Below are positions 19,171 to 63,405 of a stretch of DNA of 64,000 nucleotides, one piece after another. The translations under genes were made by a program, and so were the position numbers. Source of the DNA: a virus. The DNA is taken from positions 70,297 through 134,296 of IMG/VR virus record IMGVR_UViG_3300016665_000824; one strand, 5' to 3'. How positions within the stretch are numbered: the stretch's first letter is position 1; each line of letters begins with the position of its first letter. The notes under the pieces are model-generated. The model made no database searches and was not told the origin of the DNA. It saw only the letters and a list, made by a program, of their open reading frames with translations.

Positions 19171-19701
19171 ATGCTCTCAAGCGAAGAATACATACGCGAC
19201 AGACAAGACTTCGGTTGCTGGGAAGCCCGTATATTTTACTCCCCAGAATTAGATGCCGTTGTTGCGGCAGGTTTTATGGATGGGTTGATCTTCAACAAGG
19301 AAGAACTCTTCCAGCTAGGCTCATTACTCCTTGATGCCTCAATTAACGTTTCGGGTAAAGACATCTGCCACCTCAATAATCGGACATCGGCGAGAGGTCG
19401 TTCTGACAAGGATTTTTGGCTACAGCGCAAGAATAGATCTGGACTCGTGTATCTAATCAAGGCGATCGGGACTAACTACTACAAAATTGGTAGAACAAAA
19501 GATATTGAGACTAGATTAGAGACCCTGCAAAAGTCATCTCCATTCGACCTCTCGCTGATTCTTGCCATAGAAACATCAGACTCTTTGGCTCTAGAGAGGT
19601 ACTTCCACGATAAGTACAATGATTGTCGAGTTAGGGGTGAGTGGTTTGAGCTAGATGAGTATGCGATCGCTGAATTTATGAGCTACGAGGAGGTCGCGTG
19701 A
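19171..19701 (+). CDS. T5orf172-domain protein (GIY-YIG-like nuclease fold)
   Basis: C-terminal GLVYLIKAIGTNYYKIGRTKDIETRLETLQ ... ERYFHDKY...GEWFEL matches the T5orf172 pattern; start set at first ATG (ORF track starts at GTG 19102). Confidence 0.55.
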   Translation: MLSSEEYIRDRQDFGCWEARIFYSPELDAVVAAGFMDGLIFNKEELFQLGSLLLDASINVSGKDICHLNNRTSARGRSDKDFWLQRKNRSGLVYLIKAIGTNYYKIGRTKDIETRLETLQKSSPFDLSLILAIETSDSLALERYFHDKYNDCRVRGEWFELDEYAIAEFMSYEEVA

Positions 19702-20924
19702 TGAAAGGATACGAACAGACCTGCCCCAAAGTCGAAGCGATCGGGCAAATCAACTTTCACGGCGACGGTGTTTTTACGCCAAACAACTGGTATCACAACA
19801 TCTGTCACAAGAACGGTAAACCCTATCTCGAAGCAATAATTCTTCTTGCGGATATTGTTTCTTGGTATTTGCCCATCTACGAAAGAGATGAAGTCACTGG
19901 CAAGACGATTGGGGTCAGGAAAAAATTCAAGGCAGACAAACTCCAGCGAAACTACGACTCTTTTGCGGACCATTATGGCATGACCAAAGATCAAGCTAGA
20001 AATGCTCTGAAACACCTAGAAAGAGACGGACTCATAGACCTAGAGCTAAGAACAGTCGAAACTTCAGTACAAAAGCTTGGAAATGTTTTGTTTATCGGTG
20101 TTTACCCAGAAAAAATCAAGGATTACACTTTCACCCTCTCGCCAAAAGAACAGACCCCTGTGCTCACAGAAACCGATAGGGGTATCGACAGAAAAGCAGA
20201 GGGGTCTGCACAGAAACAGACAGCACTCCCCACAGAAGCCCAGACAAATACAGATCAATCTACAGATCTTTCTACTGATCAATCTACTAAAAATATAAGA
20301 GCGGATGAATTTTTTGCGATCGCTCCTTCGTCGCAAATCCAAGAAAATTCTTTTCCCGCACAAACAGAAAATCCGAGAATTGAAGAAACCCCAACACCCC
20401 CTACCCCCTCTTCCCCTTCCGCGCCCGAAAATATCGGCAAGGCGATCGCGCCCTCGGTAGCCACCTCAAAACAGGCAGAAGCGTATATGCAGTTTGAGCA
20501 GCGCTTTAGCCAACCAAAACCTCAAAACCGCCACGTACCCAAACTGCTTGTGGAGGCTGGCTATGCAGAATGGCACAACGGCAAACACCCGAACGACTGG
20601 CGCAAATCCTTGATAGATGTTTGCATCCAAAGGAAGAAAAAGCGTGGCGATGAAGCGACTGTAGGTGCAGCCACCGACTTTATTTTTAACGTAATGAAAG
20701 ACTGTATTTCCCTCGGATTCTGGGGTAAGTTCCAAGAGCTTGTTGATCAAGCCCTAAAGCTCGAAGCCGTCGAAGCGATCGCCGCACAACAAAAACAAAT
20801 TGAAGATCAGCGATTCGAGCAACAGCCAGTTGAATCTAACGCCCCCACAATGACTCTTGAACTTCGCAAGCAATATGCTGCCGAATTGAGACGTAAAGCC
20901 AACAACATGAGACTAATTGCTTAA
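19701..20924 (+). CDS. candidate replication initiation / helicase-loader protein
   Basis: 408 aa immediately upstream of and coupled to dnaB (TGATG overlap with previous stop); winged-helix-like N-terminus, low-complexity linker; function inferred from position only. Confidence 0.3.
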   Translation: MKGYEQTCPKVEAIGQINFHGDGVFTPNNWYHNICHKNGKPYLEAIILLADIVSWYLPIYERDEVTGKTIGVRKKFKADKLQRNYDSFADHYGMTKDQARNALKHLERDGLIDLELRTVETSVQKLGNVLFIGVYPEKIKDYTFTLSPKEQTPVLTETDRGIDRKAEGSAQKQTALPTEAQTNTDQSTDLSTDQSTKNIRADEFFAIAPSSQIQENSFPAQTENPRIEETPTPPTPSSPSAPENIGKAIAPSVATSKQAEAYMQFEQRFSQPKPQNRHVPKLLVEAGYAEWHNGKHPNDWRKSLIDVCIQRKKKRGDEATVGAATDFIFNVMKDCISLGFWGKFQELVDQALKLEAVEAIAAQQKQIEDQRFEQQPVESNAPTMTLELRKQYAAELRRKANNMRLIA

Positions 20925-20928
20925 AACT

Positions 20929-43375: not shown

Positions 43376-44035
43376 CTAGCCTCCGTAATAGTCAGCACAT
43401 AAATACTCAAGCGATCGCCCTATTTTAACCGAGTAATTCTCACCCTCGATACTAGCTTCCTGCATCACCTTTTCTAAAGCCGCTCTCACGATCTCCACAG
43501 CGTCCGTAGGAACACTAAAGATCATTCGAGTGAATTCATCACTGGCTTCGGGAGGAGCTTTCTCCTTGGCGGCTTCGAGCATCTTGGCGAGACTTTCCTT
43601 TGTGTGAGGTGTGGGGAGATAAGCGCGATCGCCTAATTTCTTTTCAACCCTTTTGAGGGAAACACTTAGCTTAACTGGATCTTCTTCGCCGTGAGCCTTG
43701 GATGCGGAGGTGTATAACTCGTATTCTTCATCCTGTAAGCCCGTAATGACATTGCAATAGTAGTATTCCAGCCCCTCTAAGTATCTATGTTCGCCATTTA
43801 CAATCTCGTACTCACCCTCAATATGCGGATGGGGGCGAACAACAAGCGGCTCAATTTGGGTAAACATCTTTAAGCTCTCCCCCAAAGCCTTTTGGTGGTG
43901 AGGCTGCAAAACGTTTGAGTTCCAAGAGTTCGGATGTATCTTTGAGGTCTCAATCTTTACATTCCACTCTTTCTGGATTCGTTGCGCGATCGGTAGCGAA
44001 TAATCAATCTTCTTCGTCATCTTCATCCTCTTCAA
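43376..44035 (-). CDS. ParB-like nuclease-domain protein
   Basis: N-terminal segment (IHPNSW ... QIEPLVVRP ... YEIVNGEHRY) resembles the ParB N-terminal domain. Confidence 0.4.
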   Translation of the reverse strand: MKRMKMTKKIDYSLPIAQRIQKEWNVKIETSKIHPNSWNSNVLQPHHQKALGESLKMFTQIEPLVVRPHPHIEGEYEIVNGEHRYLEGLEYYYCNVITGLQDEEYELYTSASKAHGEEDPVKLSVSLKRVEKKLGDRAYLPTPHTKESLAKMLEAAKEKAPPEASDEFTRMIFSVPTDAVEIVRAALEKVMQEASIEGENYSVKIGRSLEYLCADYYGG

Positions 44036-51709: not shown

Positions 51710-51916
51710 ATGCTTAAGTACAAACAAGCTGAAGTGGCGATCGCTCCCAACGGTTCGTGCGAAATTCTTTGGGGAAATAACCACCCCACAATGGCTGGAA
51801 TGAAGCAAGATGTACATCTGCCTGAAGAGATCAAGGGCCACCTTGTTGCAGTAAATCAGTACGTCAGTCAGTACATTGATATCGTGACGGAGCCAGCAGA
51901 TGTCTTGGACTTATAG
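51710..51916 (+). CDS. hypothetical protein
   Basis: 68-aa ORF. Confidence 0.35.
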   Translation: MLKYKQAEVAIAPNGSCEILWGNNHPTMAGMKQDVHLPEEIKGHLVAVNQYVSQYIDIVTEPADVLDL

Positions 51917-52188: not shown

Positions 52189-52241
52189 ACACAAGCAACC
52201 CGCCAAGCCTCTCTACGATGCTGAAACTGGCGGGTTGCTTG
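52189..52241. terminator. stem-loop between convergent genes
   Basis: cacaagcaacccgcc ... ggcgggttgcttgtg, ~14-bp stem with ~23-nt loop, followed by T-rich tgttgtg. Confidence 0.45.
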
Positions 52242-53465: not shown

Positions 53466-53836
53466 TGCTTCTTAAAACCTTCAAAAGGGATATAAGGCTC
53501 TTGCTCCATCCACTGCTTAAGGCGATCGCGGGCAAAAGCTTCTCGATATTGCGGTGGAACAAGACTAACTTCCTGTGCTGCTGCTTCGTACTTGTCTAAC
53601 TCGGCGATCGCATCATCAGCCGACATTCTCCCAAACAGTACTTCCTGATTAAGTAACGCATACTGAAGTTCGTACATTAATTCAGGATCTGTGGGCGTAT
53701 ATTCGGGAACAAGCTTGGACAGGTCTTCAATCGCACTGCACCAGTGTTGGTCGCTGGAGCAAGGTGCATCATCGGCTTTGACTCGTGACCATAACAAGTT
53801 GACAAGGATTAATTCGAGTTGTTTAGGATCTGCCAT
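53462..53836 (-). CDS. hypothetical protein
   Basis: 124-aa ORF. Confidence 0.4.
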   Translation of the reverse strand: MADPKQLELILVNLLWSRVKADDAPCSSDQHWCSAIEDLSKLVPEYTPTDPELMYELQYALLNQEVLFGRMSADDAIAELDKYEAAAQEVSLVPPQYREAFARDRLKQWMEQEPYIPFEGFKKQ

Positions 53837-54344
53837 GTGGGTAATACGAAAAACTATTGGGGAATATAGAACCTATTAGCAAGGAAATACCTGTATCGAC
53901 GTAGTTGCAAATAGCAAATACTTCTTTCTTATTTAGGTCTAAGAATGGCAAGTCTTCCTTGAGAAACGCCTCAATACGCTTGGTAAAGATTACGCAGTTA
54001 TCGGGGCAAAAACGCTCAATATTGCCTGCGTCTACTGCTATATATCTTTTATGGTCGGCAAAGAAGAAGCTTTGGGCGTTATAAGCGCTACCAAAGTCAA
54101 TAACCGTCCAGTGCGTCGGGATTATCTTGGATAAGTAGTAGTAAGTATCGACAAACCCAAGAAAGCTTGGTTCGATATCGACGTATTCTTGGTTGAACAC
54201 GCGATCGCCCTGCTCTTTAGGCAGCAAAGCCAACAGTTTGGCATTGATCGATTCAGCTTCTTGCCAGCGAAGGGCATTGTCATTAGGTATTATCATCGTC
54301 ATACTCCTCACGATCGCGTGCTTCTTGTTCTTGGTAGCCACCAA
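53823..54344 (-). CDS. hypothetical protein
   Basis: 173-aa ORF. Confidence 0.4.
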   Translation of the reverse strand: MVATKNKKHAIVRSMTMIIPNDNALRWQEAESINAKLLALLPKEQGDRVFNQEYVDIEPSFLGFVDTYYYLSKIIPTHWTVIDFGSAYNAQSFFFADHKRYIAVDAGNIERFCPDNCVIFTKRIEAFLKEDLPFLDLNKKEVFAICNYVDTGISLLIGSIFPNSFSYYPHGRS

Positions 54345-54522
54345 AAGTCAGCAACATCCCACGGATTACGGACAGATTAACTTCATTGGATGAATACTTT
54401 TTAGTCGGGAGGGATTCTTCTAAGTGATCAAGGGTGTCCCGAACCCTGTAAATTAGCCGCAGCCACTCAGGAATTTCTAGAATTATTGCTGACGCGATCG
54501 CGTAAAGGACTATTAGGTTCAT
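54283..54522 (-). CDS. hypothetical protein
   Basis: 79-aa ORF, overlaps neighbour. Confidence 0.3.
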   Translation of the reverse strand: MNLIVLYAIASAIILEIPEWLRLIYRVRDTLDHLEESLPTKKYSSNEVNLSVIRGMLLTFGGYQEQEARDREEYDDDNT

Positions 54523-54942
54523 TTACAGAAGCTCCTTAGAGAAGAAAGTTGTTTCTTTAGCCACGTCGATATCGACAGGATGAAGACCAACCGCCAACGA
54601 CTCTAAAGCCTCACTCGCGTTACTAGGATCTACTACCCACGTTTTTGCGTCAACTTCGGGCACTTGAGACCAGTATCTTTGCAACCACTTTAACCAGCCG
54701 TTGCGAGAAAACGGTTTAGGCGGATCGATTGCCGCCAATTTTTCAACAGCTTCTTTTACAAGGATCGCATCCTCTTCTAGGCTTGCTGAGTCAATCCAGA
54801 AACCGCATTTTTTGCAGTAAACAATATAGTTGCCACTGCGCTTTGAGATCTGAATCCCCAAAGAAATGGTCTTGCGAGCAAATCCTTGACTAACTTTTCC
54901 GTAGTTAGGATCGATCGCTTTCCGTCTTTTAGCTTCACCCAT
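54523..54942 (-). CDS. hypothetical protein
   Basis: 139-aa ORF with CKKCG pattern. Confidence 0.4.
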   Translation of the reverse strand: MGEAKRRKAIDPNYGKVSQGFARKTISLGIQISKRSGNYIVYCKKCGFWIDSASLEEDAILVKEAVEKLAAIDPPKPFSRNGWLKWLQRYWSQVPEVDAKTWVVDPSNASEALESLAVGLHPVDIDVAKETTFFSKELL

Positions 54943-55192
54943 TAAATTTCTCCCTTGATGTTAATTCGTATAGTCCCATCTCTTCAGTTATCCTAACCAA
55001 CTCACTCAAAGCGTCCATCCTCGCAACCTTCTCCTTGGCTCGCTCAACTTCTTCAAGCATTTCACCATAGGCGAATGGTTCGTATTGCTCAATCGCCTTT
55101 GCGAGGCGATCGCGATCTAATTCATCCAAGGCAGACTTAAATTTGAGATAGGCGATCGCCTCGTTTAGATTGCTTGGTAGTTGGGTTCTCAT
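54935..55192 (-). CDS. hypothetical protein
   Basis: 85-aa ORF. Confidence 0.35.
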   Translation of the reverse strand: MRTQLPSNLNEAIAYLKFKSALDELDRDRLAKAIEQYEPFAYGEMLEEVERAKEKVARMDALSELVRITEEMGLYELTSREKFNG

Positions 55193-55295
55193 TGCGATAC
55201 CACTTATTTATTATTAAAAAATACATAGAAGAAATGCGGCAATTCATATTAAATGAATTACGCTCAACTCCTGAAAAGTGCAAGATATTTCGTAG

Positions 55296-56387
55296 TTAAT
55301 TATGTGTTAAGGGGGTTATCTTGGAGGTTTTAGCACCCTCCTCAGAAAGCCTTGCTAGGTAAGCAGACACCCGCCGTCGCAAACTTTTTTTCGACAGTAA
55401 ATCATACTCTTTTTCAAAGATACAGCAAAGTGATTTGTAAAACAAGTTTTTATACTTGAAATAATGAGTATTCACCCTTTCTGCATCAGCAAAATGTCGA
55501 GACAGATAATAGGAATAGTTTACTTCCGCATTGGAGTCTGTTTGACAAATATGTACTCGTCTCAATCTACTGAGAGACCTGCGATCGCGTACTTCTTCGT
55601 CAATGGCTCGAATCGCATCAAGGATCTCAAGGTCATCGCTAAATGGTTCGGCGGCTTGATGGATCTCTTTTAAGTAGGAGTCCCATCGCCGAGTTAGCGA
55701 TCGCTCCTTGAGATGATTTGATATGGTTCGAGCTGTGACTCCCAATGACTTAGCTATTTCTAGCTGAGAAGCGCCATAAGGTACGAAGTTCTCGTTAGTA
55801 TAAATCCTGTCCTTAGATACTGCCTCAACACCCTCAATCCCCATAGAACATAATTCAGAGGCTTGGAGTTTTAGCAAGTCCTTTGCAGGTACTAACCTGA
55901 GTTTTTTCTTTACTTTGCGCTGCTTGTTTTTTTCTTTTTCTGCCAGTCCAGCAGCAAATTTAGAACGAGCTTGTTTTGCAAGTAATTCGGCGCGAGTACA
56001 GTGATACTTAACTTGAGTGATCTGAATCGGACTTAGTTCGACTATCGACCCAAGTTTGGCAACATCATGTTGTTTGCAGACCTTGCCAATACTTGTGTAT
56101 CGCACCCATGCTCGACCTTCTGGTAGCCACCGATAATCGATAAGCAATCCAGCTTTGTGAGACTCCCTAATCCATTTTTTGAGTGTGTCGGGTTTTACGC
56201 CGCAATCACTCGCCAAATGACTGATATTGAATTTAACCCAGCCTTTCCCGCGATCGCTTCTAGATGAAAACTGATCTAGCCCACGCACGACATGCCAAAT
56301 ATTTACTGCGCCGATCGCATGATTTTTGATCACGGCGTAGAGAATATTTGTGTAAGTTGTGGCAATTATGGGGTAATATAGTTTCAT
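55296..56387 (-). CDS. winged-helix/HTH DNA-binding protein, candidate plasmid-type replication initiator
   Basis: 363 aa with two HTH-like segments (IWHVVRGLDQFSS... and SQLEIAKSLGVTARTISNHL); Rep role inferred from neighbourhood (par genes, tandem repeats). Confidence 0.3.
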   Translation of the reverse strand: MKLYYPIIATTYTNILYAVIKNHAIGAVNIWHVVRGLDQFSSRSDRGKGWVKFNISHLASDCGVKPDTLKKWIRESHKAGLLIDYRWLPEGRAWVRYTSIGKVCKQHDVAKLGSIVELSPIQITQVKYHCTRAELLAKQARSKFAAGLAEKEKNKQRKVKKKLRLVPAKDLLKLQASELCSMGIEGVEAVSKDRIYTNENFVPYGASQLEIAKSLGVTARTISNHLKERSLTRRWDSYLKEIHQAAEPFSDDLEILDAIRAIDEEVRDRRSLSRLRRVHICQTDSNAEVNYSYYLSRHFADAERVNTHYFKYKNLFYKSLCCIFEKEYDLLSKKSLRRRVSAYLARLSEEGAKTSKITPLTHN

Positions 56388-56526
56388 CTGAGCGCTACTA
56401 TCGCTTGGGTCTGCATCTCATCAGGTTGATTAAGGAATTGAGCCTCCTTAGCCAACTGGCAGTAAAAACAATATAACACAAAACCCCCGCAAACAACTTA
56501 TTCTTGTGGGGGTTTTGTTGTAAAAT

Positions 56527-57237
56527 ATGTTTATGCGATCGCGTATCTCACTACCGATCGCTGACCATCCAACCATACTGGACAGTAAAAATATTATGTC
56601 ATACATAGACAGCCTGAAAGTAACTGCGAAGAAACATGCAATAATACAGGATATTATTTCTAGGTGCTGGAATTACTGTGTTCAACCACCCAAGAGACTC
56701 AATTCTGAGATACTTAACCATCCTGACATCATCAGCCTTATTGACCATAGCTGGGATAGCAGTATTGTTGGGCTAAACGAGTACCAAAAGCTTGTATTTT
56801 CCCTTGTCAGTGAAGGGGTAAGCGTTAGAAGCGAGTACCCTCTTTGTTTTCACGACATCTTTGTTAGGTTTCTATCGGAGATGTGCCCACTAAGCCAAAG
56901 GATTTCGATAGAGGAGAACTCTATCGACGAGATACACTTAAAATTTCCAGCCAAAAGAGGGATTTATTTTTGCTTGCGTACGGTTATTGGCTTTCGCCTT
57001 GACGGTTTTAAAAACGAAGTTTGGTATGTCGGGAAGTCGGGAAATTTTAGAGAGAGGTGGAAAAGTCACCACAAGTTTGAGGCTTTAAAGGCTATCAAGA
57101 ACGTTGCAGTGTGTTGGCTGCCCCTCGAAGATTACTCTGATGAGCAGCTAAGCTACGCAGAAGAAGTATATATTTACATGCTTCAACCCGTATTTAATGG
57201 CACTTCCAAGCCTGAAAGGTGTCTAGTGGTTAACTAA
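56527..57237 (+). CDS. GIY-YIG nuclease-domain protein
   Basis: C-terminal KRGIYFCL ... VWYVGKSGNFRERWKSHH ... EEVYIYMLQPVFN fits GIY-YIG. Confidence 0.5.
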   Translation: MFMRSRISLPIADHPTILDSKNIMSYIDSLKVTAKKHAIIQDIISRCWNYCVQPPKRLNSEILNHPDIISLIDHSWDSSIVGLNEYQKLVFSLVSEGVSVRSEYPLCFHDIFVRFLSEMCPLSQRISIEENSIDEIHLKFPAKRGIYFCLRTVIGFRLDGFKNEVWYVGKSGNFRERWKSHHKFEALKAIKNVAVCWLPLEDYSDEQLSYAEEVYIYMLQPVFNGTSKPERCLVVN

Positions 57238-57250
57238 CAAACAGTCTAAT

Positions 57251-57296
57251 AGCCAGACAAAAAAAGATCCGAAACTGGATCTTTTTTTGTCTGGCT
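57251..57296. terminator. bidirectional intrinsic terminator
   Basis: Perfect 20-bp stem agccagacaaaaaaagatcc / ggatctttttttgtctggct with 6-nt loop, between convergent genes. Confidence 0.7.
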
Positions 57297-57342
57297 TGGT
57301 TTTCAACAAAAAAGCACCCCGCCTAAACGAGATGCTTTTCAC

Positions 57343-57912
57343 TTACCTTGGCAGATCCCTCACGATCGCCCTAACAATCCCCTCGAACTCTCGTTCTATA
57401 AGCATGAAAGACTCCTGCCTCGACTCCGCTCGCCTAGCCATAACGGCATCAAATATCTCCGCGTCGCGTTGCTTCAATACTAATGCTGGCTCAGTATTCG
57501 GCGAGAAGCCCCTAACGTAATACGGGAAATAATCAACCCTCCAGTACCGCACTAAGCCATCGTCGGGATTGAGGAAATCTACAGGCGCGATCACCGTGTA
57601 AATAAAGTCCAAATTAATCCCGTCTAGCTCGACCTCCTCCTCGCATTGAGGGCAGATCCATCCCCGTTGAATGGTTGCATTGTCAGGTATTGAGGTGACT
57701 GGGGCTTCAGAACAGATGTGATAGACCAAATACTTGCGGGTAAACCTTCTAGGGTAATCCTTTACAAAGCTATCTAGTAATGCGATCGCCTCTACTCTTT
57801 TTAATCCCAATCTTTGGGCTGCGACATGCGGCTGAGTCCAATCTCCCACCGAACGGAAGATATCTTGGAGGGCGCTCCTCTGGCTATCGGTCAAGCTGGT
57901 TTCGATATACAT
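57343..57912 (-). CDS. hypothetical protein
   Basis: 189-aa ORF with CPQCEEE pattern. Confidence 0.4.
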   Translation of the reverse strand: MYIETSLTDSQRSALQDIFRSVGDWTQPHVAAQRLGLKRVEAIALLDSFVKDYPRRFTRKYLVYHICSEAPVTSIPDNATIQRGWICPQCEEEVELDGINLDFIYTVIAPVDFLNPDDGLVRYWRVDYFPYYVRGFSPNTEPALVLKQRDAEIFDAVMARRAESRQESFMLIEREFEGIVRAIVRDLPR

Positions 57913-57985
57913 AAAATTTTGCTACAGTGAATACATAAAATTGCCACAAATCTGCGATAATTCGACATCGTTTCAAAATAAACCC

Positions 57986-58195
57986 ATGTCAATTTGCGGA
58001 ATCTGTGGCGCGGAAGAAGATAACGGCAACATTTCTTTGGAGTTCGATCGCAAGCGAGGTCTCATCACCTCCAACAGAGATGTTCACTTTACGAAATGCT
58101 GCCAACACGCGATCGCCAAGGGTCGAACAGGATGCCCAAATAAAAAGGGCAAAGTCCTTGACCTGCCCTATCTACGTGTCCGACCTATTGTTTAG
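57986..58195 (+). CDS. small Cys-rich protein
   Basis: ORF 57941..58195 starts at TTG; first ATG at 57986 (MSICGICGAEED...); TGCCACAAA motif upstream. Confidence 0.35.
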   Translation: MSICGICGAEEDNGNISLEFDRKRGLITSNRDVHFTKCCQHAIAKGRTGCPNKKGKVLDLPYLRVRPIV

Positions 58196-58440
58196 CTCCA
58201 CGCCAGCTTGTAGCCACAACCCTTGGCGATCGCTCCAGCTTGGTCAAGAGTATCAAAGCCACAAACATTGCGAATGTTCAAATCTGTGTGACTGATCAAG
58301 CCGACTAAATAGTAGCGATCGTCTGGTCCTAGTTCGTAGTTCAAAGTCCCTTGCATAGCCTCCTCCTCGCGAATATCACGCGCTTTTGTGCTAAATTTAT
58401 GGCAATACTAACACAATAGGCGGAATACTGCCACAAAAAA

Positions 58441-58692
58441 ATGCCAAAAGGGATTAAGAAAATTAAAAGAGGGGTGGGGCAGCCTCGGAAGTACAGAAAG
58501 TCGAAGTGTCCACACTGCAAGTCGCACTGGCATACCAGTAATGGAGGCGGGCGCGAAAAGTGTAATGACTGCGGCAAGACATGGGCTAAGAGGAAGGGTG
58601 ATGACGAGCTATTGGCAGCACCACCCGCATCCGTCACCACAAAGAAAAAGGAAGCCCCCGTCAGTATCGCAGATCAAAGACCTGCTGCTTGA
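58441..58692 (+). CDS. C4 zinc-ribbon protein
   Basis: CPHCKSHW ... CNDCGKTW; CTGCCACAAAAAA directly before the ATG. Confidence 0.4.
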   Translation: MPKGIKKIKRGVGQPRKYRKSKCPHCKSHWHTSNGGGREKCNDCGKTWAKRKGDDELLAAPPASVTTKKKEAPVSIADQRPAA

Positions 58693-58757
58693 AAACCACG
58701 ATATTGTCGCTGAGGCGATCACACAAATAACTATTGAAGAAGGTCAAGTAAAAGGCT

Positions 58758-59033
58758 ATGTCAAGGAAGAAGGCAGGTGGTACAAGTTCACCATCTATAA
58801 GTGTTGATCCACTCCGCGCTGAGTTGGACGAGATTTTTAGCGAGTTTCCGAGCGGGGCGGCGATCGCCTATGGATTCCTAAAAACAGAAAGCTCTAGCCC
58901 GTTTATCCAGATTGGTGATGGGGTGAATGTCTGGAGGGTGCGAAGAAATGCCGTCGATTTCTATATTAATGGTGTTAGCGATCGCGTAGAACTCAAATGG
59001 ACGAAGAACAGCAACCAGAACATCGAACCATAA
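58758..59033 (+). CDS. hypothetical protein
   Basis: 91-aa ORF; overlaps next ORF. Confidence 0.3.
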   Translation: MSRKKAGGTSSPSISVDPLRAELDEIFSEFPSGAAIAYGFLKTESSSPFIQIGDGVNVWRVRRNAVDFYINGVSDRVELKWTKNSNQNIEP

Positions 59034-59575
59034 CGCAGATGTGGAATACCCTTCTTGAACAAGACCCAAGGTTCAAGATGGTAGTGGACTTAGCAACCCC
59101 ACGAGGTAATCGCAAAAATGTGATGCCCCTCACCCGCGAGAATGTTCGGATTGCCTTCGCCGCATTTAATGACGGTATTGCTGAGCAGTTAACCGACTTG
59201 GCGATCGCCTGTTTTAACCGTTCCCACTCTCCTCGATTCGTCACCACCGATGAAGGTGATGAATTTATTGAAACTAGCGAAGAAGAAATCTATTATCAAT
59301 GGGAGCCTGAAGCGGCTTTGAGGATCTGCAACCAACGCCTTGATGGGTTTCTAATTGAGATCAGCGATCGTGGCACTATTACCAAATTTAAGTACGAGCG
59401 ACCACCTTTCCTGTATCCTCACGGCTGGGCCTATCAACCAACCATGCCCGAAGTTCCCGACGATCCTGAATGCTGCACGTTATTTGATCGAAGAAGCCAT
59501 GCTCGTCGCCGTCGAAGATTTGGGAATGTCGGCGACAAGTATGACCTGCATGGTAAAGCGTGGAAGAAGGGTTAA
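58997..59575 (+). CDS. hypothetical protein
   Basis: 192-aa ORF. Confidence 0.35.
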   Translation: MDEEQQPEHRTITQMWNTLLEQDPRFKMVVDLATPRGNRKNVMPLTRENVRIAFAAFNDGIAEQLTDLAIACFNRSHSPRFVTTDEGDEFIETSEEEIYYQWEPEAALRICNQRLDGFLIEISDRGTITKFKYERPPFLYPHGWAYQPTMPEVPDDPECCTLFDRRSHARRRRRFGNVGDKYDLHGKAWKKG

Positions 59576-59823
59576 GGCAGTATCCTGTCCAGCAGGTAGA
59601 TAATTAAGTGCATAGCCTTAACATTCCTGTTCGCGCAGTATATCTTCAGGCGAGTATGCAGTGAAGCAGGTAGATCAACCGTGATCCGCACAGTCCGCTC
59701 CTTCTCCCCTTCCACGGGCAACCCATCCAAAATATTTCCCGCAGTATTGTTTGTGTTCAGATCGGAATTAGCCTTGATAAAATTCTGCTCAATTGTTTCG
59801 GTAAGAGGTATACGCTTAGACAC
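59572..59823 (-). CDS. ParG-like ribbon-helix-helix protein (candidate centromere-binding partner of ParA)
   Basis: C-terminal RITVDLPASLHTRLKIYCANRNVKAMHLIIYLLDRIL is RHH-like; immediately downstream of and overlapping parA. Confidence 0.45.
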   Translation of the reverse strand: MSKRIPLTETIEQNFIKANSDLNTNNTAGNILDGLPVEGEKERTVRITVDLPASLHTRLKIYCANRNVKAMHLIIYLLDRILP

Positions 59824-60448
59824 AGCTCAGCACCTCCTCAAATAAAGCTTCGTACTCTGCCGCCGAATCTTGGGCGGCTTTGCTGTTTAATCCCCAGACA
59901 GTTGTGCGTTGACCAGACGAGTCGGCGATCGCCTGTTTCTGGTGAATCACTGTTTCTAACAATGGGATAACCGATATGGCTTTTAAGGTGGCGATCGCCT
60001 CTTCCTTGAGCATGGTTCGAGGGACTGCGCGGTTTAAAAAGAATGCGGCTCTGGGTAAACCCCCTCGCACTGACTGAGCTTGCAGTATTAGCTTTACTGA
60101 GTCCATTGCCGAGTTGAGGTCTAACCTTGTTGGTTGACATGGAACAATTGCTAGATCAGTTCTTAGTAGGATTGCGCGAGTTACCTCCGACAAGTTGGCG
60201 GGACCATCGAGGATTAAGTAGTCGCTCTTTAGGGCTGGTATTTTGTCGAGAATGCTGTCGGAATCGGACATGATTGTATATGCGATCGGAGTGGCGATCG
60301 TGCCTGCCCATTTACTTGAAGATTGCTGACCATCGGCATCGACCAGGATTACGTCTTTATCGTGGCGGCGCAGATACTCTGCCAAGTGGACTGAAGTGGT
60401 GGACTTGCCACAACCACCTTTTTGATTGACCAACGAGATTACAGTCAT
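59816..60448 (-). CDS. parA: partition ATPase ParA (small, type Ib-like)
   Basis: Deviant Walker A NQKGGCGKST, 210 aa. Confidence 0.8.
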   Translation of the reverse strand: MTVISLVNQKGGCGKSTTSVHLAEYLRRHDKDVILVDADGQQSSSKWAGTIATPIAYTIMSDSDSILDKIPALKSDYLILDGPANLSEVTRAILLRTDLAIVPCQPTRLDLNSAMDSVKLILQAQSVRGGLPRAAFFLNRAVPRTMLKEEAIATLKAISVIPLLETVIHQKQAIADSSGQRTTVWGLNSKAAQDSAAEYEALFEEVLSCV

Positions 60449-60597
60449 AGTTATTCGTGGGAGTATTACCTCCGCGCATTAAACCATGATCGTTGCGATA
60501 CTGCAATCAGTAAGTACTGAAGGTGTCCGCGCAAACGTTATTTGTGATGCTGGAAGCTTTACTGGGAAAGGGTTTTAGAATGTCCTTGCAAATAAGA

Positions 60598-60798
60598 TTA
60601 GTTGACTGACCTTATTTTAAAATGCTTGCAATTCACTGGGCAGCGATCGCCTAACCAAGATGCTTCGGTATGGACGTGGAGATCGCTAGTTTTCCAGATT
60701 TGTGGGTTATAGCAATGGTCGGCGCAATCGGGGCTGTACGACTCCCACTTCGGATTAACCCCGTTCCAGTAACAGTCGAGTCGGGTTTCGGTGTGCAT
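60598..60798 (-). CDS. hypothetical Cys-rich protein
   Basis: 66-aa ORF. Confidence 0.3.
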   Translation of the reverse strand: MHTETRLDCYWNGVNPKWESYSPDCADHCYNPQIWKTSDLHVHTEASWLGDRCPVNCKHFKIRSVN

Positions 60799-60801
60799 GT
60801 C

Positions 60802-61050
60802 CTACCAGAACCAATTATCGTAGAAAGTTATAGTCAAGCAAAAAGCAAGTAGTTCAAGCCCAAACTGGATCTCTCCAGTATCGTCATAACAAAATATCCT
60901 AAGCCATGTCTCTGGATAGGAATGTGTGATTTGAAAATCTAGCTTAACCAACGGGATCTGACTAGGCTCAATCAGTATCCAAGCATTGTCCTGATATGGC
61001 AGCTCGTATGGATTGTTGTGGTCGTATTCAAATTTTTTGATTTTGAACAT
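60802..61050 (-). CDS. hypothetical protein
   Basis: 82-aa ORF. Confidence 0.3.
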   Translation of the reverse strand: MFKIKKFEYDHNNPYELPYQDNAWILIEPSQIPLVKLDFQITHSYPETWLRIFCYDDTGEIQFGLELLAFCLTITFYDNWFW

Positions 61051-61250
61051 AAATATTAAAAAGCGATCGCCAATAGGCTATGTGATTTTTACGATTCTAA
61101 ACTTGATATCTCGATATGTCCGACGCAAAGATGACAGCTCCACCTTGGCTTCTTTCTTGTCGTACTGATACTTATTTTGTCTAACCCATACGTTAGGCTG
61201 CTCAAACTTTGTTACTAACTTTTCAATTGCGTACATCGTTGTAACTGGTT

Positions 61251-61440
61251 TAAAAAGCGATCGCTATCCTGAAGAGAGGTGGATAGGCGATCGCAAAATG
61301 TACATCATGAAAAATCCTCTCCCCACAATCTTAACTTGGATTCGCATTAAAAAGCGATCGCTATCCTGAAGAGAGGTGGACAGGCGATCGCTAAAATGAT
61401 TATCTAACATGACCTCTCCCCACAATTTTAACTTGATTTT
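61251..61440. repeat. two tandem ~97-bp repeats, each with a pair of HIP1 sites
   Basis: taaaaagcgatcgctatcctgaagagaggtgga(t/c)aggcgatcgc ... cctctccccacaat(c/t)ttaacttg at 61251 and 61348; ORF-free region upstream of the par operon. Confidence 0.6.
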
Positions 61441-61594
61441 GTGGCAAAAAAATACCGACGTCCTGTGGAGTGGTGGACGACGGGCTATGTAATCTCGATG
61501 GTCTGGAAATATTCTACGCGGTTTTGTGGCGCTTTTATTATCGAATCCCGCATTTAATCGATAATAACGAGAAAATTATTCCTAGATATTATCA

Positions 61595-62068
61595 GTGCCA
61601 ATAACAACCACCATGACTCTCGACTACACCCTCGGATATCTCACGGCAACCTTTGACTCCAACGATTCCCACGGCAAGAGTAGCTCGCCCGAATATGCCG
61701 TGTGGAAATCAATGGTGAACCGATGTACCAATAAGTCGAATAACAACTACGTCAACTATGGCGGTAAGGGTGTCACGGTATCAAAGGAGTGGCGAGACTT
61801 CGAGCAGTTCTACAAGGACATGGGGAAGAAGCCTGCGGGGGCATCGCTGGATAGAATTGACCCGAAGAAGGGCTACAGCAAAGGTAATTGCCGATGGGCT
61901 GAAGCTGGCGATGCTGGCGCGAGGACAAACGATGTGTATATCAAGGTGGGCGGGAAGAAAAAACGGCTCAAGGATGTTGCTGCGGCGAAGGGGTTGAAGG
62001 AGGATACCCTGCGGAAGCGGGTTAATCGAGGGATGGACATGAAGACTGCGGTGACGAAGAAGGCGTAA
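61595..62068 (+). CDS. phage-family DNA-binding protein (HNH_3/AP2-like fold)
   Basis: YAVWKSMVNRC ... YGGKGVTVSKEW ... SLDRIDPKKGYSKGNCRWA motif common in phage genes; G-rich codon usage and no HIP1, unlike surroundings. Confidence 0.4.
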   Translation: MPITTTMTLDYTLGYLTATFDSNDSHGKSSSPEYAVWKSMVNRCTNKSNNNYVNYGGKGVTVSKEWRDFEQFYKDMGKKPAGASLDRIDPKKGYSKGNCRWAEAGDAGARTNDVYIKVGGKKKRLKDVAAAKGLKEDTLRKRVNRGMDMKTAVTKKA

Positions 62069-62892
62069 ATACGTTTTAAATCTCAAGAAAGCTCTCATTT
62101 GTTAACAGTAACTGGAAGATTTCTTTGTAAAAGACCTAATAAAAAAGACCTAGCTCGATCCGTGATCCAGAGATCCAAAATCTCCACGTCCAAAACAGTT
62201 AACTTTTTGAGTGATTCAGGGGGTTGCTATTGGGAATTTTCGCGCGTGTGCATAGAAATAGCAAATTTGACCGTCAAAAAAATAAGCTTTATAGTGTCAT
62301 CACTTAGCTGTGTGACAGGCATCTAAGTAAGGGCTTTACAGTTCTCTAGTCACTTATATATGGCTAGCAAGCGTAAACAAAGGAATAGTAAAGACAGCTA
62401 ACAAGCTGTTTGTAACTAGGGTAGAAATTCGGTTAAGTAGCTACGAAGAAACATAGCTACTTTGAACTTAAGAAAGAGTTTTTTGTTTGCGGGTTTTAAT
62501 GCCTCACTTGCAAGGTAGATAGGATGAACAAAGAGATTAAACAGTGAATTAACACGGTATAGGCTGTAACTAGTAGATAAAGCACTCTAAGCTCAAACAA
62601 CGATCGCACTAAGTTAAACGGTTACTTAGTAAAGCGATCGCACTCATTCCCATTGCTTACGAGATAGGCAAAAAGTGAGGGAATAAAGCGATCGGCGATC
62701 GGGTAGTTCGATCCCGTCATGGGTAAGGACTACAGCACTTAGGAATAGCTCTAAAGTAGCTAGGGTTAAGTGAGTTAGTAGCTATTTGCGAGTAATAGCT
62801 TAAGCGTAGGTACTAATCACTTCATACGCAAATTAGATCAAAGAGATAAACCGTTAAAACTATTCACACTATATTTTTTGAGGGTTAAAACC

Positions 62893-63405
62893 ATGTCTAA
62901 TCTTAATACTGAGTTTTCCGAATTGATTGCGATCGCTGATTTTCACGGTGTAAGCATTGATGAAGCAGTTGCGCTAAAAACTGCTAGCGAAAGCGCTAGT
63001 AAAAAGCTTACTCGTAATCTTTCTACAGCGATCGCTGATCGTCTTGTTGCGACAATCGAAAATGATTGGAGCGCTACTAACTCTAATTATCTTGATGTGC
63101 TAACTCGTAGAATGCAACGCGCTAACCGTAAAGAACGCTTAGCCGATCCTGTTGCAAAACTTGAAGCACCCGTTGAAGTAGTAGTTGAAGCACCCGTTGA
63201 GACTGAAAAAGTTACCGTTGAAGCACCCGTTGAAGTAGTAGTTGAAGCACCCGTTGAGACAGCTATCGACAGATCACCAACGCAGGCACGCCGCAAACGT
63301 GGCGCTACAGTTGCAACGGTTGAAGCACTCGCACCCGTTGAGACTGAAAAAGTTACCGTTGAAGCACCCGTTGCGAGAAAAACTAGATCACGTAGAGCTA
63401 AGTAA
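62893..63405 (+). CDS. protein with tandem EAPVE(V/T) peptide repeats
   Basis: ORF 62878..63405; start at ATG 62893; nucleotide tandem repeats at about 63166-63380 encode repeated EAPVEVVVEAPVETEKVTV units. Confidence 0.45.
   Translation: MSNLNTEFSELIAIADFHGVSIDEAVALKTASESASKKLTRNLSTAIADRLVATIENDWSATNSNYLDVLTRRMQRANRKERLADPVAKLEAPVEVVVEAPVETEKVTVEAPVEVVVEAPVETAIDRSPTQARRKRGATVATVEALAPVETEKVTVEAPVARKTRSRRAK

What the first reader, a model, noticed from the sequence alone, without database searches (positions are those of the whole stretch)
55296..61440. Plasmid-type maintenance region inside a phage-like element (phage-plasmid signature)
A small deviant-Walker-A ParA (59816-60448) with an overlapping RHH ParG-like gene, two tandem ~97-bp repeats each containing paired HIP1 sites (61251-61440) upstream of the par operon, and a 363-aa winged-helix protein (55296-56387) lie together. 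With the self-encoded replisome (dnaG, dnaB, ssb, dnaN) and the absence of any recognisable integrase, this suggests the element is maintained as an extrachromosomal phage-plasmid.
Basis: inference. Interest (0 to 1): 0.6.

Follow-up and report, generated by a model that had tools for sequence, protein, structure and literature searches.

The report
Plasmid partition cassette in a cyanophage
A roughly 134-kb virus of cyanobacteria carries a working-looking plasmid segregation gene pair taken from cyanobacterial plasmids, next to a plasmid-initiator-like protein and a conserved array of hairpin repeats, which suggests, but does not prove, that it can persist in its host as a plasmid.

Summary
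The ParA gene (59816-60448) is a ParF-like deviant-Walker-A ATPase, and an 83-aa ParG-like RHH gene overlaps its end. Both are homologous to parA-RHH pairs on cyanobacterial plasmids (55-59% for ParA) and are the only genes shared with those plasmids. Both are under strong purifying selection (dN/dS 0.07-0.24) across four diverged lineages of one phage clade.

The element is a phage, extremely rich in HIP1 sites. No integrase was found in 92 kb of its 134.4-kb contig.

The 363-aa protein models confidently as two tandem winged-helix domains. Its best two-domain structural match is to the iteron-binding initiators pi and RepE. Distant relatives sit on cyanobacterial plasmids, and one is fused to a Prim-Pol domain. 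However, it has no adjacent iterons and is missing from one lineage.

The 97-bp repeats are real: two full copies plus a degenerate third. They are conserved in all four lineages, always upstream of par. They lack the CAGTA boxes that form the operator or centromere in this Par family; three such boxes lie at 60499-60519. Each repeat unit reads as a -10-like box, a hairpin with compensatory stem changes, and a U-run. I read these as small-RNA or terminator units rather than a centromere.

The phage-plasmid lifestyle is plausible but unproven.

The parts
59816..60448 (-). parA: small ParF-like deviant Walker-A partition ATPase (210 aa)
   Evidence: Walker A KGGCGKST. Pfam and PHROG hits. ParF 4dzz at 1.7e-18. 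55-59% identical to ParA genes on cyanobacterial plasmids. dN/dS 0.07-0.13 among four phage lineages.
59572..59823 (-). ParG-like ribbon-helix-helix partner gene (83 aa), overlapping parA by 8 nt
   Evidence: Sub-threshold Pfam RHH hits. 35-50% identity to the CopG/RHH partner genes on plasmids, including the N-terminal K-R..L..Q.F tail and the invariant T-x-R-x-T-V-D-L strand. The family profile hits ParG 1p94 at E 0.022. dN/dS 0.08-0.24.
60499..60519 (-). Three CAGTA/TACTG boxes (TCAGTACT|TACTGATT|GCAGTATC): candidate RHH operator or minimal centromere
   Evidence: Plasmid relatives carry arrays of 8- or 12-bp-phased GCAGTAAT boxes at the same place. The boxes are conserved in four phage lineages, while the spacers vary.
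60478..60486 (-). TGGTTTAAT, an extended -10-like element of the par promoter (inferred)
   Evidence: Invariant in four lineages and located immediately downstream of the boxes. Function is inferred only.
60598..60798 (-). 66-aa cysteine-rich ORF between the repeat array and parA
   Evidence: Conserved in the window, L012 and L239; absent in L238. No family hit.
60802..61236 (-). Two small ORFs (82 aa and 52 aa), a variable insertion between the array and the Cys-rich ORF
   Evidence: Replaced by unrelated ORFs in L012 and absent in L238 and L239.
61250..61484 (-). Array of three tandem units (hairpins at 61252-61294, 61349-61391 and 61446-61484). On the minus strand each unit is a TAnnAT box, about 30 nt, a hairpin and a T-run.
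   Evidence: for the repeats themselves. Arrays are present in all four lineages, always upstream of par. All five variable stem pairs change on both sides, 95% of cells are paired, and 0 of 500 shuffles reach the observed values. Hairpin energies are -12.5 to -23 kcal/mol. These are the only HIP1-hairpin-plus-T-run elements in 84 kb. There are no CAGTA boxes in the units. No Rfam family matches.
61595..62068 (+). HNH endonuclease gene, transcribed away from the par side; the repeat array lies in the 358-bp divergent intergenic region
   Evidence: phrog_3377 at 2.6e-44. The same neighbour is present in L012 and L238.
55296..56387 (-). 363-aa double winged-helix protein, a Rep-like candidate
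56463..56533 (.). Conserved GC-rich inverted repeat, with the palindrome ACTGCCAGT lying between it and the 363-aa gene, upstream of that gene's start codon
   Evidence: conserved in three lineages. Function unknown.
51847..51875 (.). Second cluster of phased CAGTA boxes (GCAGTAAA|TCAGTACG|TCAGTCAG), inside a small ORF
   Evidence: The TACTG boxes are invariant in four lineages while the spacers vary. Whether the RHH protein binds here is untested.
19698..20924 (+). 408-aa replication initiator (DnaD-like), with 12-bp GATC-containing repeats at 20249-20287; the phage's own origin candidate, next to dnaB (20917-22656)
   Evidence: phrog_270 at 2.2e-11. Tandem repeats. Sequence. DnaB Pfam hits.
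43376..44035 (-). ParB_N-domain protein beside dnaN, 16 kb from parA
   Evidence: Weak Pfam ParB_N hit. PHROG ParB-like families at 1e-10. Not shown to be linked to the par cassette.

Best explanation
The region is the maintenance module of a large cyanophage that probably persists as an extrachromosomal prophage, that is, a phage-plasmid. The contig is 134.4 kb and extremely rich in HIP1 sites.

Shown:
- A two-gene type Ib partition cassette was captured from cyanobacterial plasmids. It consists of a ParF-like ATPase and a ParG-like RHH protein.
- It has been kept under purifying selection in at least four diverged lineages of this phage clade.
- It keeps the family's CAGTA boxes at its promoter.

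Inferred:
- The RHH dimer binds these boxes, and possibly similar box clusters at 51847-51875 and in the left flank. This would repress the operon and mark the DNA for ParA-driven segregation over the nucleoid.
- The neighbouring 363-aa double winged-helix protein is a plasmid-type initiator or regulator.
- The three tandem 97-bp units between the par side and the divergent HNH gene are not the centromere. They are small transcription units or attenuators: a -10 box, about 30 nt, a hairpin and a U-run.
- By analogy with parABS mycobacteriophages, these units could provide RNA-based replication or copy-number control in the plasmid state.
For: Phage identity:
- Portal, Mu-F, tail-S and Rha genes, and capsid and tail genes in relatives.
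- Portal nearest to cyanosiphophages S-CBS4, CL131 and PaV-LD.
- 237 HIP1 sites in 83.7 kb.

The par cassette:
- Family and structure hits.
- Nearest relatives lie on cyanobacterial plasmids with the same overlapping RHH gene.
- Only these two genes are shared with those plasmids.
- dN/dS 0.07-0.24 with dS 0.5-1.5.

Boxes:
- Arrays in plasmids and three conserved boxes in the phage.
- Further box clusters.

Integrase: no integrase or recombinase Pfam hit in contig positions 32184-124186.

Rep-like protein.

Array:
- Conserved position and hairpin covariation.
- 89% nucleotide identity between the window and L012, where synonymous sites differ at 40%.

Precedents: parABS mycobacteriophages replicate as plasmids using either a RepA-like protein or a par-proximal non-coding RNA region (PMC7157519). 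Microcystis phage Mic1 was proposed to be a plasmid prophage on the basis of ParA, ParB and an antirepressor (PMC7156551).
Against: - There is no direct evidence of an episomal state. The contig ends and 42 kb of the contig were not seen.
- No repressor gene was identified; only a small Cro/CI-type HTH gene and a Rha antirepressor were found.
- There are only three operator boxes, against long arrays in the plasmids, so centromere function may be weak.
- The known relatives of the structural genes (CL131, PaV-LD, S-CBS4) were isolated as lytic phages, and none appeared among the 30 listed of the 249 phage records matching this ParA.
- The RNA reading of the array rests on sequence features alone. 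Strand asymmetry in G-U pairs is weak, there is no Rfam match, and there are no transcript data.
Confidence: 0.55

Rival explanations
1. One reading: the 97-bp repeats are the centromere or incompatibility determinant (or iterons), bound by the RHH protein or by the 363-aa protein.
For: - The array lies upstream of the par operon in all four lineages. In the most compact lineage (L238) it ends only about 170 bp from the parA start.
- It is more conserved than synonymous sites.
- Repeats next to par or rep genes are the classical arrangement.
- The octamer TTGTGGGG occurs both in some units and in the inverted repeat upstream of the 363-aa gene.
Against: - The family's RHH sites are phased CAGTA boxes. 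The DNA-contacting strand of the RHH protein is invariant between plasmids and phages. The units contain no such box, while three boxes sit at the par promoter.
- A 97-bp spacing and hairpin-plus-T-run units are unlike known type Ib centromeres or iterons.
- L012 keeps the array but lacks the 363-aa gene. L238 has the gene, yet two of its three units lack the TTGTGGGG motif.
Confidence: 0.15
2. The phage is essentially lytic, or at most forms a transient carrier state. On this view the par cassette is a captured accessory gene pair. It might interfere with resident host plasmids that use the same CAGTA centromeres, or position phage DNA during infection. It would not maintain a stable plasmid prophage.
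For: - The structural relatives CL131, PaV-LD and S-CBS4 are known as lytic isolates (their lifestyle is from my own knowledge).
- No clear repressor was identified.
- The phage has only three boxes.
- Its box type matches host-plasmid centromeres, so cross-talk is conceivable.
- Long runs of small early-type ORFs are typical of virulent phages.
Against: - Long-term purifying selection on both par genes in four lineages.
- Rha/Bro antirepressor genes and a Cro/CI-type HTH gene are present.
- There is a beta clamp but no DNA polymerase gene in 92 kb, which suggests reliance on the host polymerase.
- A Rep-like gene lies nearby.
Confidence: 0.25
3. The element is an integrating prophage, or a piece of a larger replicon, and its integrase and attachment sites lie in the 42 kb of the contig that could not be read.
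For: - Only contig positions 32184-124186 of 134398 were examined.
- Phages that carry both ParA/ParB and an integrase have been reported (PMC4490671).
Against: - The seen flanks are entirely phage-like.
- Relatives continue leftwards into capsid and tail genes, and the right flank continues into small phage ORFs.
- Related contigs of 139-140 kb suggest that 134 kb is about a whole genome.
- No tRNA gene or host gene was seen.
Confidence: 0.1
4. The array is only a stack of three intrinsic terminators that insulate the par operon. The hairpins would be built from the abundant HIP1 palindromes, with no RNA product or replication role.
For: - All 12 units have a GC-rich stem followed by a T-run on the par strand.
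- HIP1 sites are everywhere in this genome.
Against: - No gene on that strand lies upstream of the array for more than 10 kb, so there is nothing obvious to terminate.
- A TAnnAT box is conserved at a fixed distance before most hairpins.
- In 8 of 12 units the loop is complementary to a stretch 23-35 nt upstream, with co-variation.
- No other such element exists in 84 kb.
Confidence: 0.25

Closest known systems
ParF-ParG-parH of plasmid TP228 (type Ib partition)
   Same: A small deviant-Walker-A ATPase, whose best solved-structure match is ParF. It is followed by a small RHH protein with a flexible N-terminal tail; ParG is the best profile hit. Short phased boxes lie upstream of the operon.
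   Different: Sequence identity is low. The box sequence is CAGTA rather than ACTC. The phage has only three boxes. The ACTC motif and parH layout are from my own knowledge, not tested here.
parA-RHH cassettes of cyanobacterial plasmids (for example Crocosphaera plasmid A, Dolichospermum pDol_DET69_01, Planktothrix agardhii plasmids)
   Same: ParA is 55-59% identical, with the same overlapping RHH gene and the same GCAGTAAT-type boxes upstream.
   Different: The plasmids have arrays of up to about 8 boxes and a longer RHH linker (104-130 aa against 83 aa). None has the hairpin array, and none shares any other gene with the phage.
Extrachromosomal parABS prophages of cluster A mycobacteriophages (RedRock, Miko; Wetzel et al. 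2020, PMC7157519)
   Same: A phage without an integrase carries a par cassette. Some members have a RepA-like protein of 320-350 aa beside par, while close relatives lack it. A par-proximal non-coding region expressing RNA serves as the origin in those relatives. Here, three of four lineages have a 363-aa Rep-like gene near par, and all four have a structured non-coding array beside par.
   Different: The par type differs (ParB/parS there, RHH here), as do host phylum and phage backbone. Plasmid replication was shown experimentally there and is untested here.
Phage P1 plasmid replicon (repA, iterons, parABS)
   Same: A plasmid initiator gene and a partition operon lie side by side inside a large phage that has a separate lytic replication system.
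   Different: P1 uses type Ia ParA/ParB-parS, and its iterons flank repA. No iterons were found beside the 363-aa gene. The P1 comparison is from my own knowledge.
Microcystis phage Mic1 (PMC7156551)
   Same: A freshwater cyanophage with ParA, a separate ParB-domain gene and an antirepressor, for which a plasmid prophage was proposed.
   Different: It is not related. Only the antirepressor, a methylase and ThyX are shared at E below 1e-4. Mic1's ParA has no RHH partner.
Iteron-binding initiators pi (R6K) and RepE (F)
   Same: The predicted tandem winged-helix architecture. Pi is the only solved structure that aligns over both domains.
   Different: There is no detectable sequence similarity and no Pfam Rep_3 hit. 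The protein has an extra C-terminal domain of about 110 residues. No iterons were found.

Membership tests
Type Ib ParA (ParF-like) | Deviant Walker A motif KGGxxK[ST] with the signature lysine | tested here: met
   NQKGGCGKST at residues 8-17.
Type Ib ParA (ParF-like) | Small size (about 200 aa) without an N-terminal DNA-binding domain, and homology to ParF | tested here: met
   210 aa; ParF 4dzz at 1.7e-18 over residues 1-191.
Type Ib ParA (ParF-like) | ATP-dependent nucleoid binding or polymerisation, stimulated by the partner protein | not testable with these tools
   Needs biochemistry.
ParG-like RHH centromere-binding protein | Ribbon-helix-helix fold | tested here: inconclusive
   Pfam 56B_RHH scores 24.6 bits (cut-off 27.2) and RHH_10 scores 23.9 bits (cut-off 27). 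The family profile hits ParG 1p94 at E 0.022. Homologs are annotated as CopG/RHH.
ParG-like RHH centromere-binding protein | Gene immediately downstream of, and co-oriented with, parA | tested here: met
   8-nt overlap. Same layout in 4 phage lineages and in more than 10 plasmid or plasmid-like contigs.
ParG-like RHH centromere-binding protein | Binds repeated boxes at or near the operon (centromere and operator) | tested here: inconclusive
   Three conserved CAGTA boxes at 60499-60519, matching the box arrays of plasmid relatives. Binding itself is untested.
Phage-plasmid | Phage structural and packaging genes together with plasmid partition or replication genes on one replicon | tested here: met
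   portal, Mu-F, tail and capsid genes together with ParA/RHH on one 134-kb contig.
Phage-plasmid | Prophage maintained extrachromosomally | not testable with these tools
   No reads, contig ends or lysogens were available.
Phage-plasmid | No integration module | tested here: inconclusive
   None in 92 of 134.4 kb. 42 kb were not seen.
Iteron-type plasmid initiator (Rep_3 / pi / RepE) | Two tandem winged-helix domains | tested here: met
   AlphaFold model with pLDDT 86. Pi 2nra is matched over 162-166 residues, with modest scores.
Iteron-type plasmid initiator (Rep_3 / pi / RepE) | Sequence membership in a Rep family | tested here: not met
   Only generic HTH Pfam hits. No significant PDB sequence hit.
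Iteron-type plasmid initiator (Rep_3 / pi / RepE) | Iterons adjacent to the gene | tested here: not met
   No direct-repeat array in 55000-57400.
Intrinsic terminator / small RNA gene | GC-rich hairpin followed by a U-run on the transcribed strand | tested here: met
   All 12 units, -12.5 to -23 kcal/mol, with T5-T7 after the stem (one unit has TTTCT). The consensus scan missed them because their loops are 11 nt.
Intrinsic terminator / small RNA gene | A transcript is actually made and ends there | not testable with these tools
   No transcriptome data were available.
Any Rfam RNA family (for the array) | Covariance-model match | tested here: not met
   No match in 60400-61700 better than E 4.4.

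The most novel reading that the evidence does not exclude
The tandem hairpin array would be an RNA-based plasmid-mode replication origin, copy-number control or immunity element. Its logic would be comparable to the RedRock-type non-coding-RNA origins of mycobacteriophages, or to P4 CI and P1 c4. It would be built from three small RNAs whose CU-rich loops pair with purine-rich stretches upstream. It would work alongside a ParF/ParG cassette whose binding boxes are dispersed in the genome. That would make this clade the first cyanobacterial phage-plasmids with an RNA-controlled replicon.
Probability: 0.2. Interest if true: 0.7.

Novelty: new member of a known kind. Interest (0 to 1): 0.5.

Why it matters
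Phage-plasmids are well documented in Proteobacteria, Firmicutes and Actinobacteria, but hardly at all in cyanobacteria, where lysogeny itself is poorly understood.

A widespread clade of 134-140-kb cyanophages that has kept a plasmid-derived segregation system would be a concrete candidate for episomal lysogeny in bloom-forming or filamentous cyanobacteria.

The par cassette, the Rep-like gene and the hairpin array together form a compact segment of about 6 kb. It could be tested directly as a new low-copy replicon or stability module for cyanobacterial genetics.

The shared CAGTA box motif also predicts cross-talk, such as incompatibility or hitch-hiking, between the phage and resident host plasmids.

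Tried and rejected
- DNA similarity of 55000-62200 to GenBank phages gave no match. Against plasmids, only parA matched.
- Searches for close relatives of ParA found one phage relative in IMG/VR (L012). JGI metagenomes and GTDB genomes gave only plasmid-type ParA genes at 59% identity or less (the best full-length match), so the source genome is not a GTDB representative.
- The 363-aa protein has no relative in IMG/VR by pattern scan.
- A first AlphaFold run with 4 sequences was unusable (pLDDT 46). I did not use it for fold search.
- The afdb50 fold library was unavailable.
- Rfam gave nothing for the array.
- Searches of IMG/VR for the array motifs found only L012's contig. Two of my patterns were mis-specified and returned nothing. 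A 16-mer returned only chance matches.
- I considered the idea that the array provides iterons for the 363-aa protein, based on the shared TTGTGGGG octamer. I rejected it because presence of the motif and presence of the gene are anti-correlated across lineages.
- Strand assignment of the hairpins from G-U pairs was not decisive: 8 against 6 G-U pairs, and -236.8 against -230.3 kcal/mol.
- Mic1 is not a relative.
Walking with homology searches extended coverage to 92 kb but did not reach the contig ends.
- Accession numbers of the samples were not found in the paper library.

Full report
**What the window is.** The window is the reverse complement of a 134,398-bp metagenome contig (ENA ERZ27292652, k141_20893). 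The two are identical except for 57 bp in a 12-bp tandem array. Using window proteins and homology-search hits as handles, I read contig positions 32184-124186, which is 92 kb.

**Gene content is that of a large tailed phage.**
- Structural and lysogeny-type genes: a Phage_portal_3 portal at 3257-4912, and Mu-F, tail-S and Rha in the left flank.
- Replication genes: DnaG, DnaB, DnaN and SSB.
- Nucleotide and DNA-processing genes: ThyX, dCTP deaminase, MazG, RusA and methylases.
- The rest is long runs of small ORFs with no family.
- Relatives continue leftwards into capsid and tail genes.
- The portal is about 30% identical to those of cyanosiphophages S-CBS4, Aphanizomenon CL131 and Planktothrix PaV-LD.
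- The octamer GCGATCGC (HIP1) occurs 237 times in 83.7 kb, against about 1.3 expected. This indicates long adaptation to a HIP1-rich cyanobacterium.
- No tRNA gene was found. No integrase, resolvase or transposase Pfam hit occurs in the 92 kb.

**The partition cassette is real and of plasmid origin.**
- ORF 59816-60448 (-) has the deviant Walker A motif KGGCGKST. It hits ParA-type families, and its best solved-structure relative is ParF of TP228 (1.7e-18, full length).
- Its closest relatives by far are ParA genes on cyanobacterial plasmids, at 55-59% identity: Crocosphaera, Nostoc, Dolichospermum, Planktothrix, Scytonema and Tolypothrix.
- In GTDB genomes the closest relatives lie on small contigs of filamentous cyanobacteria.
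- Phage ParAs such as those of phiHAP-1, VP882, D6 and RedRock reach only about 30%.
- On the plasmids, parA is followed by an overlapping gene annotated as CopG/RHH.
- The window's 83-aa ORF (59572-59823) overlaps parA by 8 nt and is homologous to those partner genes. It shares both the C-terminal RHH segment and a conserved N-terminal K-R..L..Q.F tail.
- A profile of this RHH family finds ParG as its best PDB hit, at E 0.022.
- A tblastn search of all ORFs of the extended sequence against fifteen plasmid loci shows that only these two genes are shared.

**Relatives and selection.** Three further lineages of the same phage clade carry the cassette: L012 (IMG/VR, ParA 93%), L239 (86%) and L238 (77%).

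| Gene | dN/dS |
|---|---|
| ParA | 0.07-0.13 |
| RHH | 0.08-0.24 |
| 363-aa protein | 0.10-0.17 |

Synonymous divergence is 0.5-1.5. The cassette is therefore old in this clade and is functionally constrained.

**Where the RHH protein most likely binds.**
- In the plasmid relatives, the 30-200 bp before parA are filled with 8- or 12-bp-phased GCAGTAAT boxes. Examples are five copies of AAGTAATGCAGT in L078, and boxes running into the start codon in L156 and L010.
- The residues of the RHH beta-strand are invariant between plasmids and phages.
- The phage has three such boxes, TCAGTACT|TACTGATT|GCAGTATC, at 60499-60519. They lie just upstream of an invariant TGGTTTAAT. The boxes are conserved in four lineages while the spacers vary.
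- Clusters of at least three boxes within 40 bp occur six times in 84 kb, against 0.5 in shuffles.
- One cluster, at 51847-51875, keeps its boxes in all four lineages.
- Another, in the left flank (L006 5651-5682), shares 15 nt with the operator.
- Whether these extra clusters are additional partition sites is untested. Both lie in coding DNA.

**The 97-bp repeats.**
- The repeat is confirmed and has a third, degenerate unit.
- It lies in the 358-bp divergent region between the minus-strand par side and a plus-strand HNH endonuclease gene.
- All four lineages have three tandem units at this place. In L238 the array ends about 170 bp from the parA start. In L239 it abuts the 66-aa Cys-rich ORF.
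- The window and L012 have different small ORFs inserted in between.
- Read on the par strand, each unit consists of a TAnnAT box, about 28-33 nt, a hairpin whose outer stem is a pair of HIP1 sites and whose loop is CU-rich, and then T5-T7.
- The inner stems differ between units and lineages but stay complementary. All five variable pairs change on both sides, 95% of cells are paired, and 0 of 500 shuffles reach the observed values. Slid controls reach 23-40%. The units are related by descent, so this is not an independent sample.
- The array is 89% identical between the window and L012, where synonymous sites differ at 40%.
- No other HIP1-hairpin-plus-T-run element exists in 84 kb.
- The units contain no CAGTA box.
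- In 8 of 12 units the loop is complementary to a purine-rich stretch 23-35 nt upstream. The pairs co-vary: GAGAGG/CCTCTC, GAGAAG/CTTCTC and AGAGAG/CTCTCT. The shuffle P is about 0.007.
- Rfam has no match.
- I conclude that the array is a selected, structured element tied to the par locus, but that it is probably not the RHH centromere. Its anatomy fits tandem small transcription units or attenuators.

**The 363-aa protein.**
- It has only three close relatives, all in this phage clade. It is absent from L012, where about 3.5 kb including this gene and a GIY-YIG-like ORF is replaced by about 0.7 kb.
- An exhaustive profile search finds 117 distant relatives of about 300-350 aa that share its first 235 residues.
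- These relatives carry two HTH regions, and one is fused to an N-terminal Prim-Pol domain.
- Two relatives lie on cyanobacterial plasmids: Pseudanabaena pPg_02 and a 20.7-kb Tolypothrix plasmid.
- With 46 sequences, AlphaFold gives a confident model (pLDDT 86, pTM 0.82) with two winged-helix domains and a C-terminal alpha/beta domain.
- Foldseek's top hits are the iteron-binding initiators pi and RepE/Rep (probability 0.99, E 0.02-0.05).
- There are no iterons near the gene. A conserved GC-rich inverted repeat and a palindrome lie upstream.
- This is suggestive of a plasmid-type initiator, but a transcription regulator is equally possible.

**The phage's own replication module lies elsewhere.** A 408-aa DnaD-like initiator (phrog_270, 2e-11) overlaps the start of dnaB. 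In its linker region it contains three 12-bp GATC-bearing repeats followed by an AT-rich stretch, a layout like lambda O with its ori. No DNA polymerase gene was seen, although a beta clamp gene is present.

**Comparison with known systems.**
- The cassette works like, and by sequence belongs with, type Ib ParF/ParG systems.
- The overall arrangement is closest in logic to the extrachromosomal parABS prophages of cluster A mycobacteriophages. There the integrase is replaced by par. A few members have a RepA-like protein next to par, and the others use a par-proximal non-coding RNA region as the origin (PMC7157519).
- For cyanophages, a plasmid prophage has been proposed for Microcystis phage Mic1 from ParA, ParB and an antirepressor (PMC7156551). 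Mic1 is unrelated to this element.

**Verdict.**
- The phage-plasmid interpretation is reasonable and is strengthened by the plasmid ancestry and selective constraint of the par genes. It remains an inference, because the physical state of the genome could not be tested and 42 kb were not seen.
- The role assigned to the 97-bp repeats should change from centromere to a structured, probably transcribed, regulatory or replication element of unknown function.

Noticed in passing
window 52199-52235 (+): Rfam abiF RNA motif, 46.9 bits against a gathering score of 37. It lies just after two small plus-strand ORFs embedded in a minus-strand gene block, and no abiF-type gene is evident next to it.
   Followed up: no
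window 20249-20287, inside ORF 19698-20924 (+): Three 12-bp repeats (TACAGATCAATC) carrying GATC sites, followed by an AT-rich stretch, in the linker of the DnaD-like initiator gene upstream of dnaB. This is a lambda-O-like origin candidate.
   Followed up: partly
window 63161-63257, inside ORF 62878-63405 (+): A 12-bp coding tandem repeat (EAPVE.. motif) whose length differs by 57 bp between the window and the otherwise identical ENA contig.
   Followed up: partly
whole window plus flanks (83.7 kb): HIP1 (GCGATCGC) occurs 237 times, about one per 350 bp, against about 1.3 expected. This is an extreme case for a phage genome.
   Followed up: partly
L006 5651-5682 (window coordinates about -4053 to -4022), inside an 860-aa gene: Four phased CAGTA/TACTG boxes that share a 15-nt identity (CAGTACTTACTGATT) with the parA operator. 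This may be a remote RHH site.
   Followed up: partly
window 61250-61484 and the arrays in L012, L238 and L239: The hairpin loops are complementary to purine-rich stretches 23-35 nt upstream in 8 of 12 units, with co-varying pairs. This could be a pseudoknot or an intermolecular pairing.
   Followed up: partly
window 56463-56533, with the palindrome between it and the 363-aa gene start (56387): A conserved GC-rich inverted repeat and the palindrome ACTGCCAGT upstream of the 363-aa gene, both kept in three lineages.
   Followed up: partly
L239 1-1749: An IS607-like pair (a 190-aa serine recombinase plus a 395-aa protein) is inserted right beside the hairpin array in one relative, replacing the HNH side.
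   Followed up: no
window 43376-44035 (-): A ParB_N-domain protein is encoded directly after dnaN, 16 kb from parA. It could be a nuclease or sulfiredoxin-type ParB-like protein rather than a partition protein.
   Followed up: no
window 53818-57304 compared with L012 9619-10322: The 363-aa gene and a neighbouring 236-aa ORF with a weak GIY-YIG hit form a 3.5-kb block that is replaced by 0.7 kb in L012. This is an accessory-module boundary.
   Followed up: partly
L245-L249, about 3887-4198: A Tad2-like (anti-Thoeris) gene sits among the capsid and tail genes of related 35-139-kb contigs of this phage group. The group appears in dozens of assemblies.
   Followed up: no
contig positions 32184-124186: A beta clamp, helicase, primase, SSB and an initiator are present, but no DNA polymerase gene was seen in 92 kb.
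   Followed up: partly
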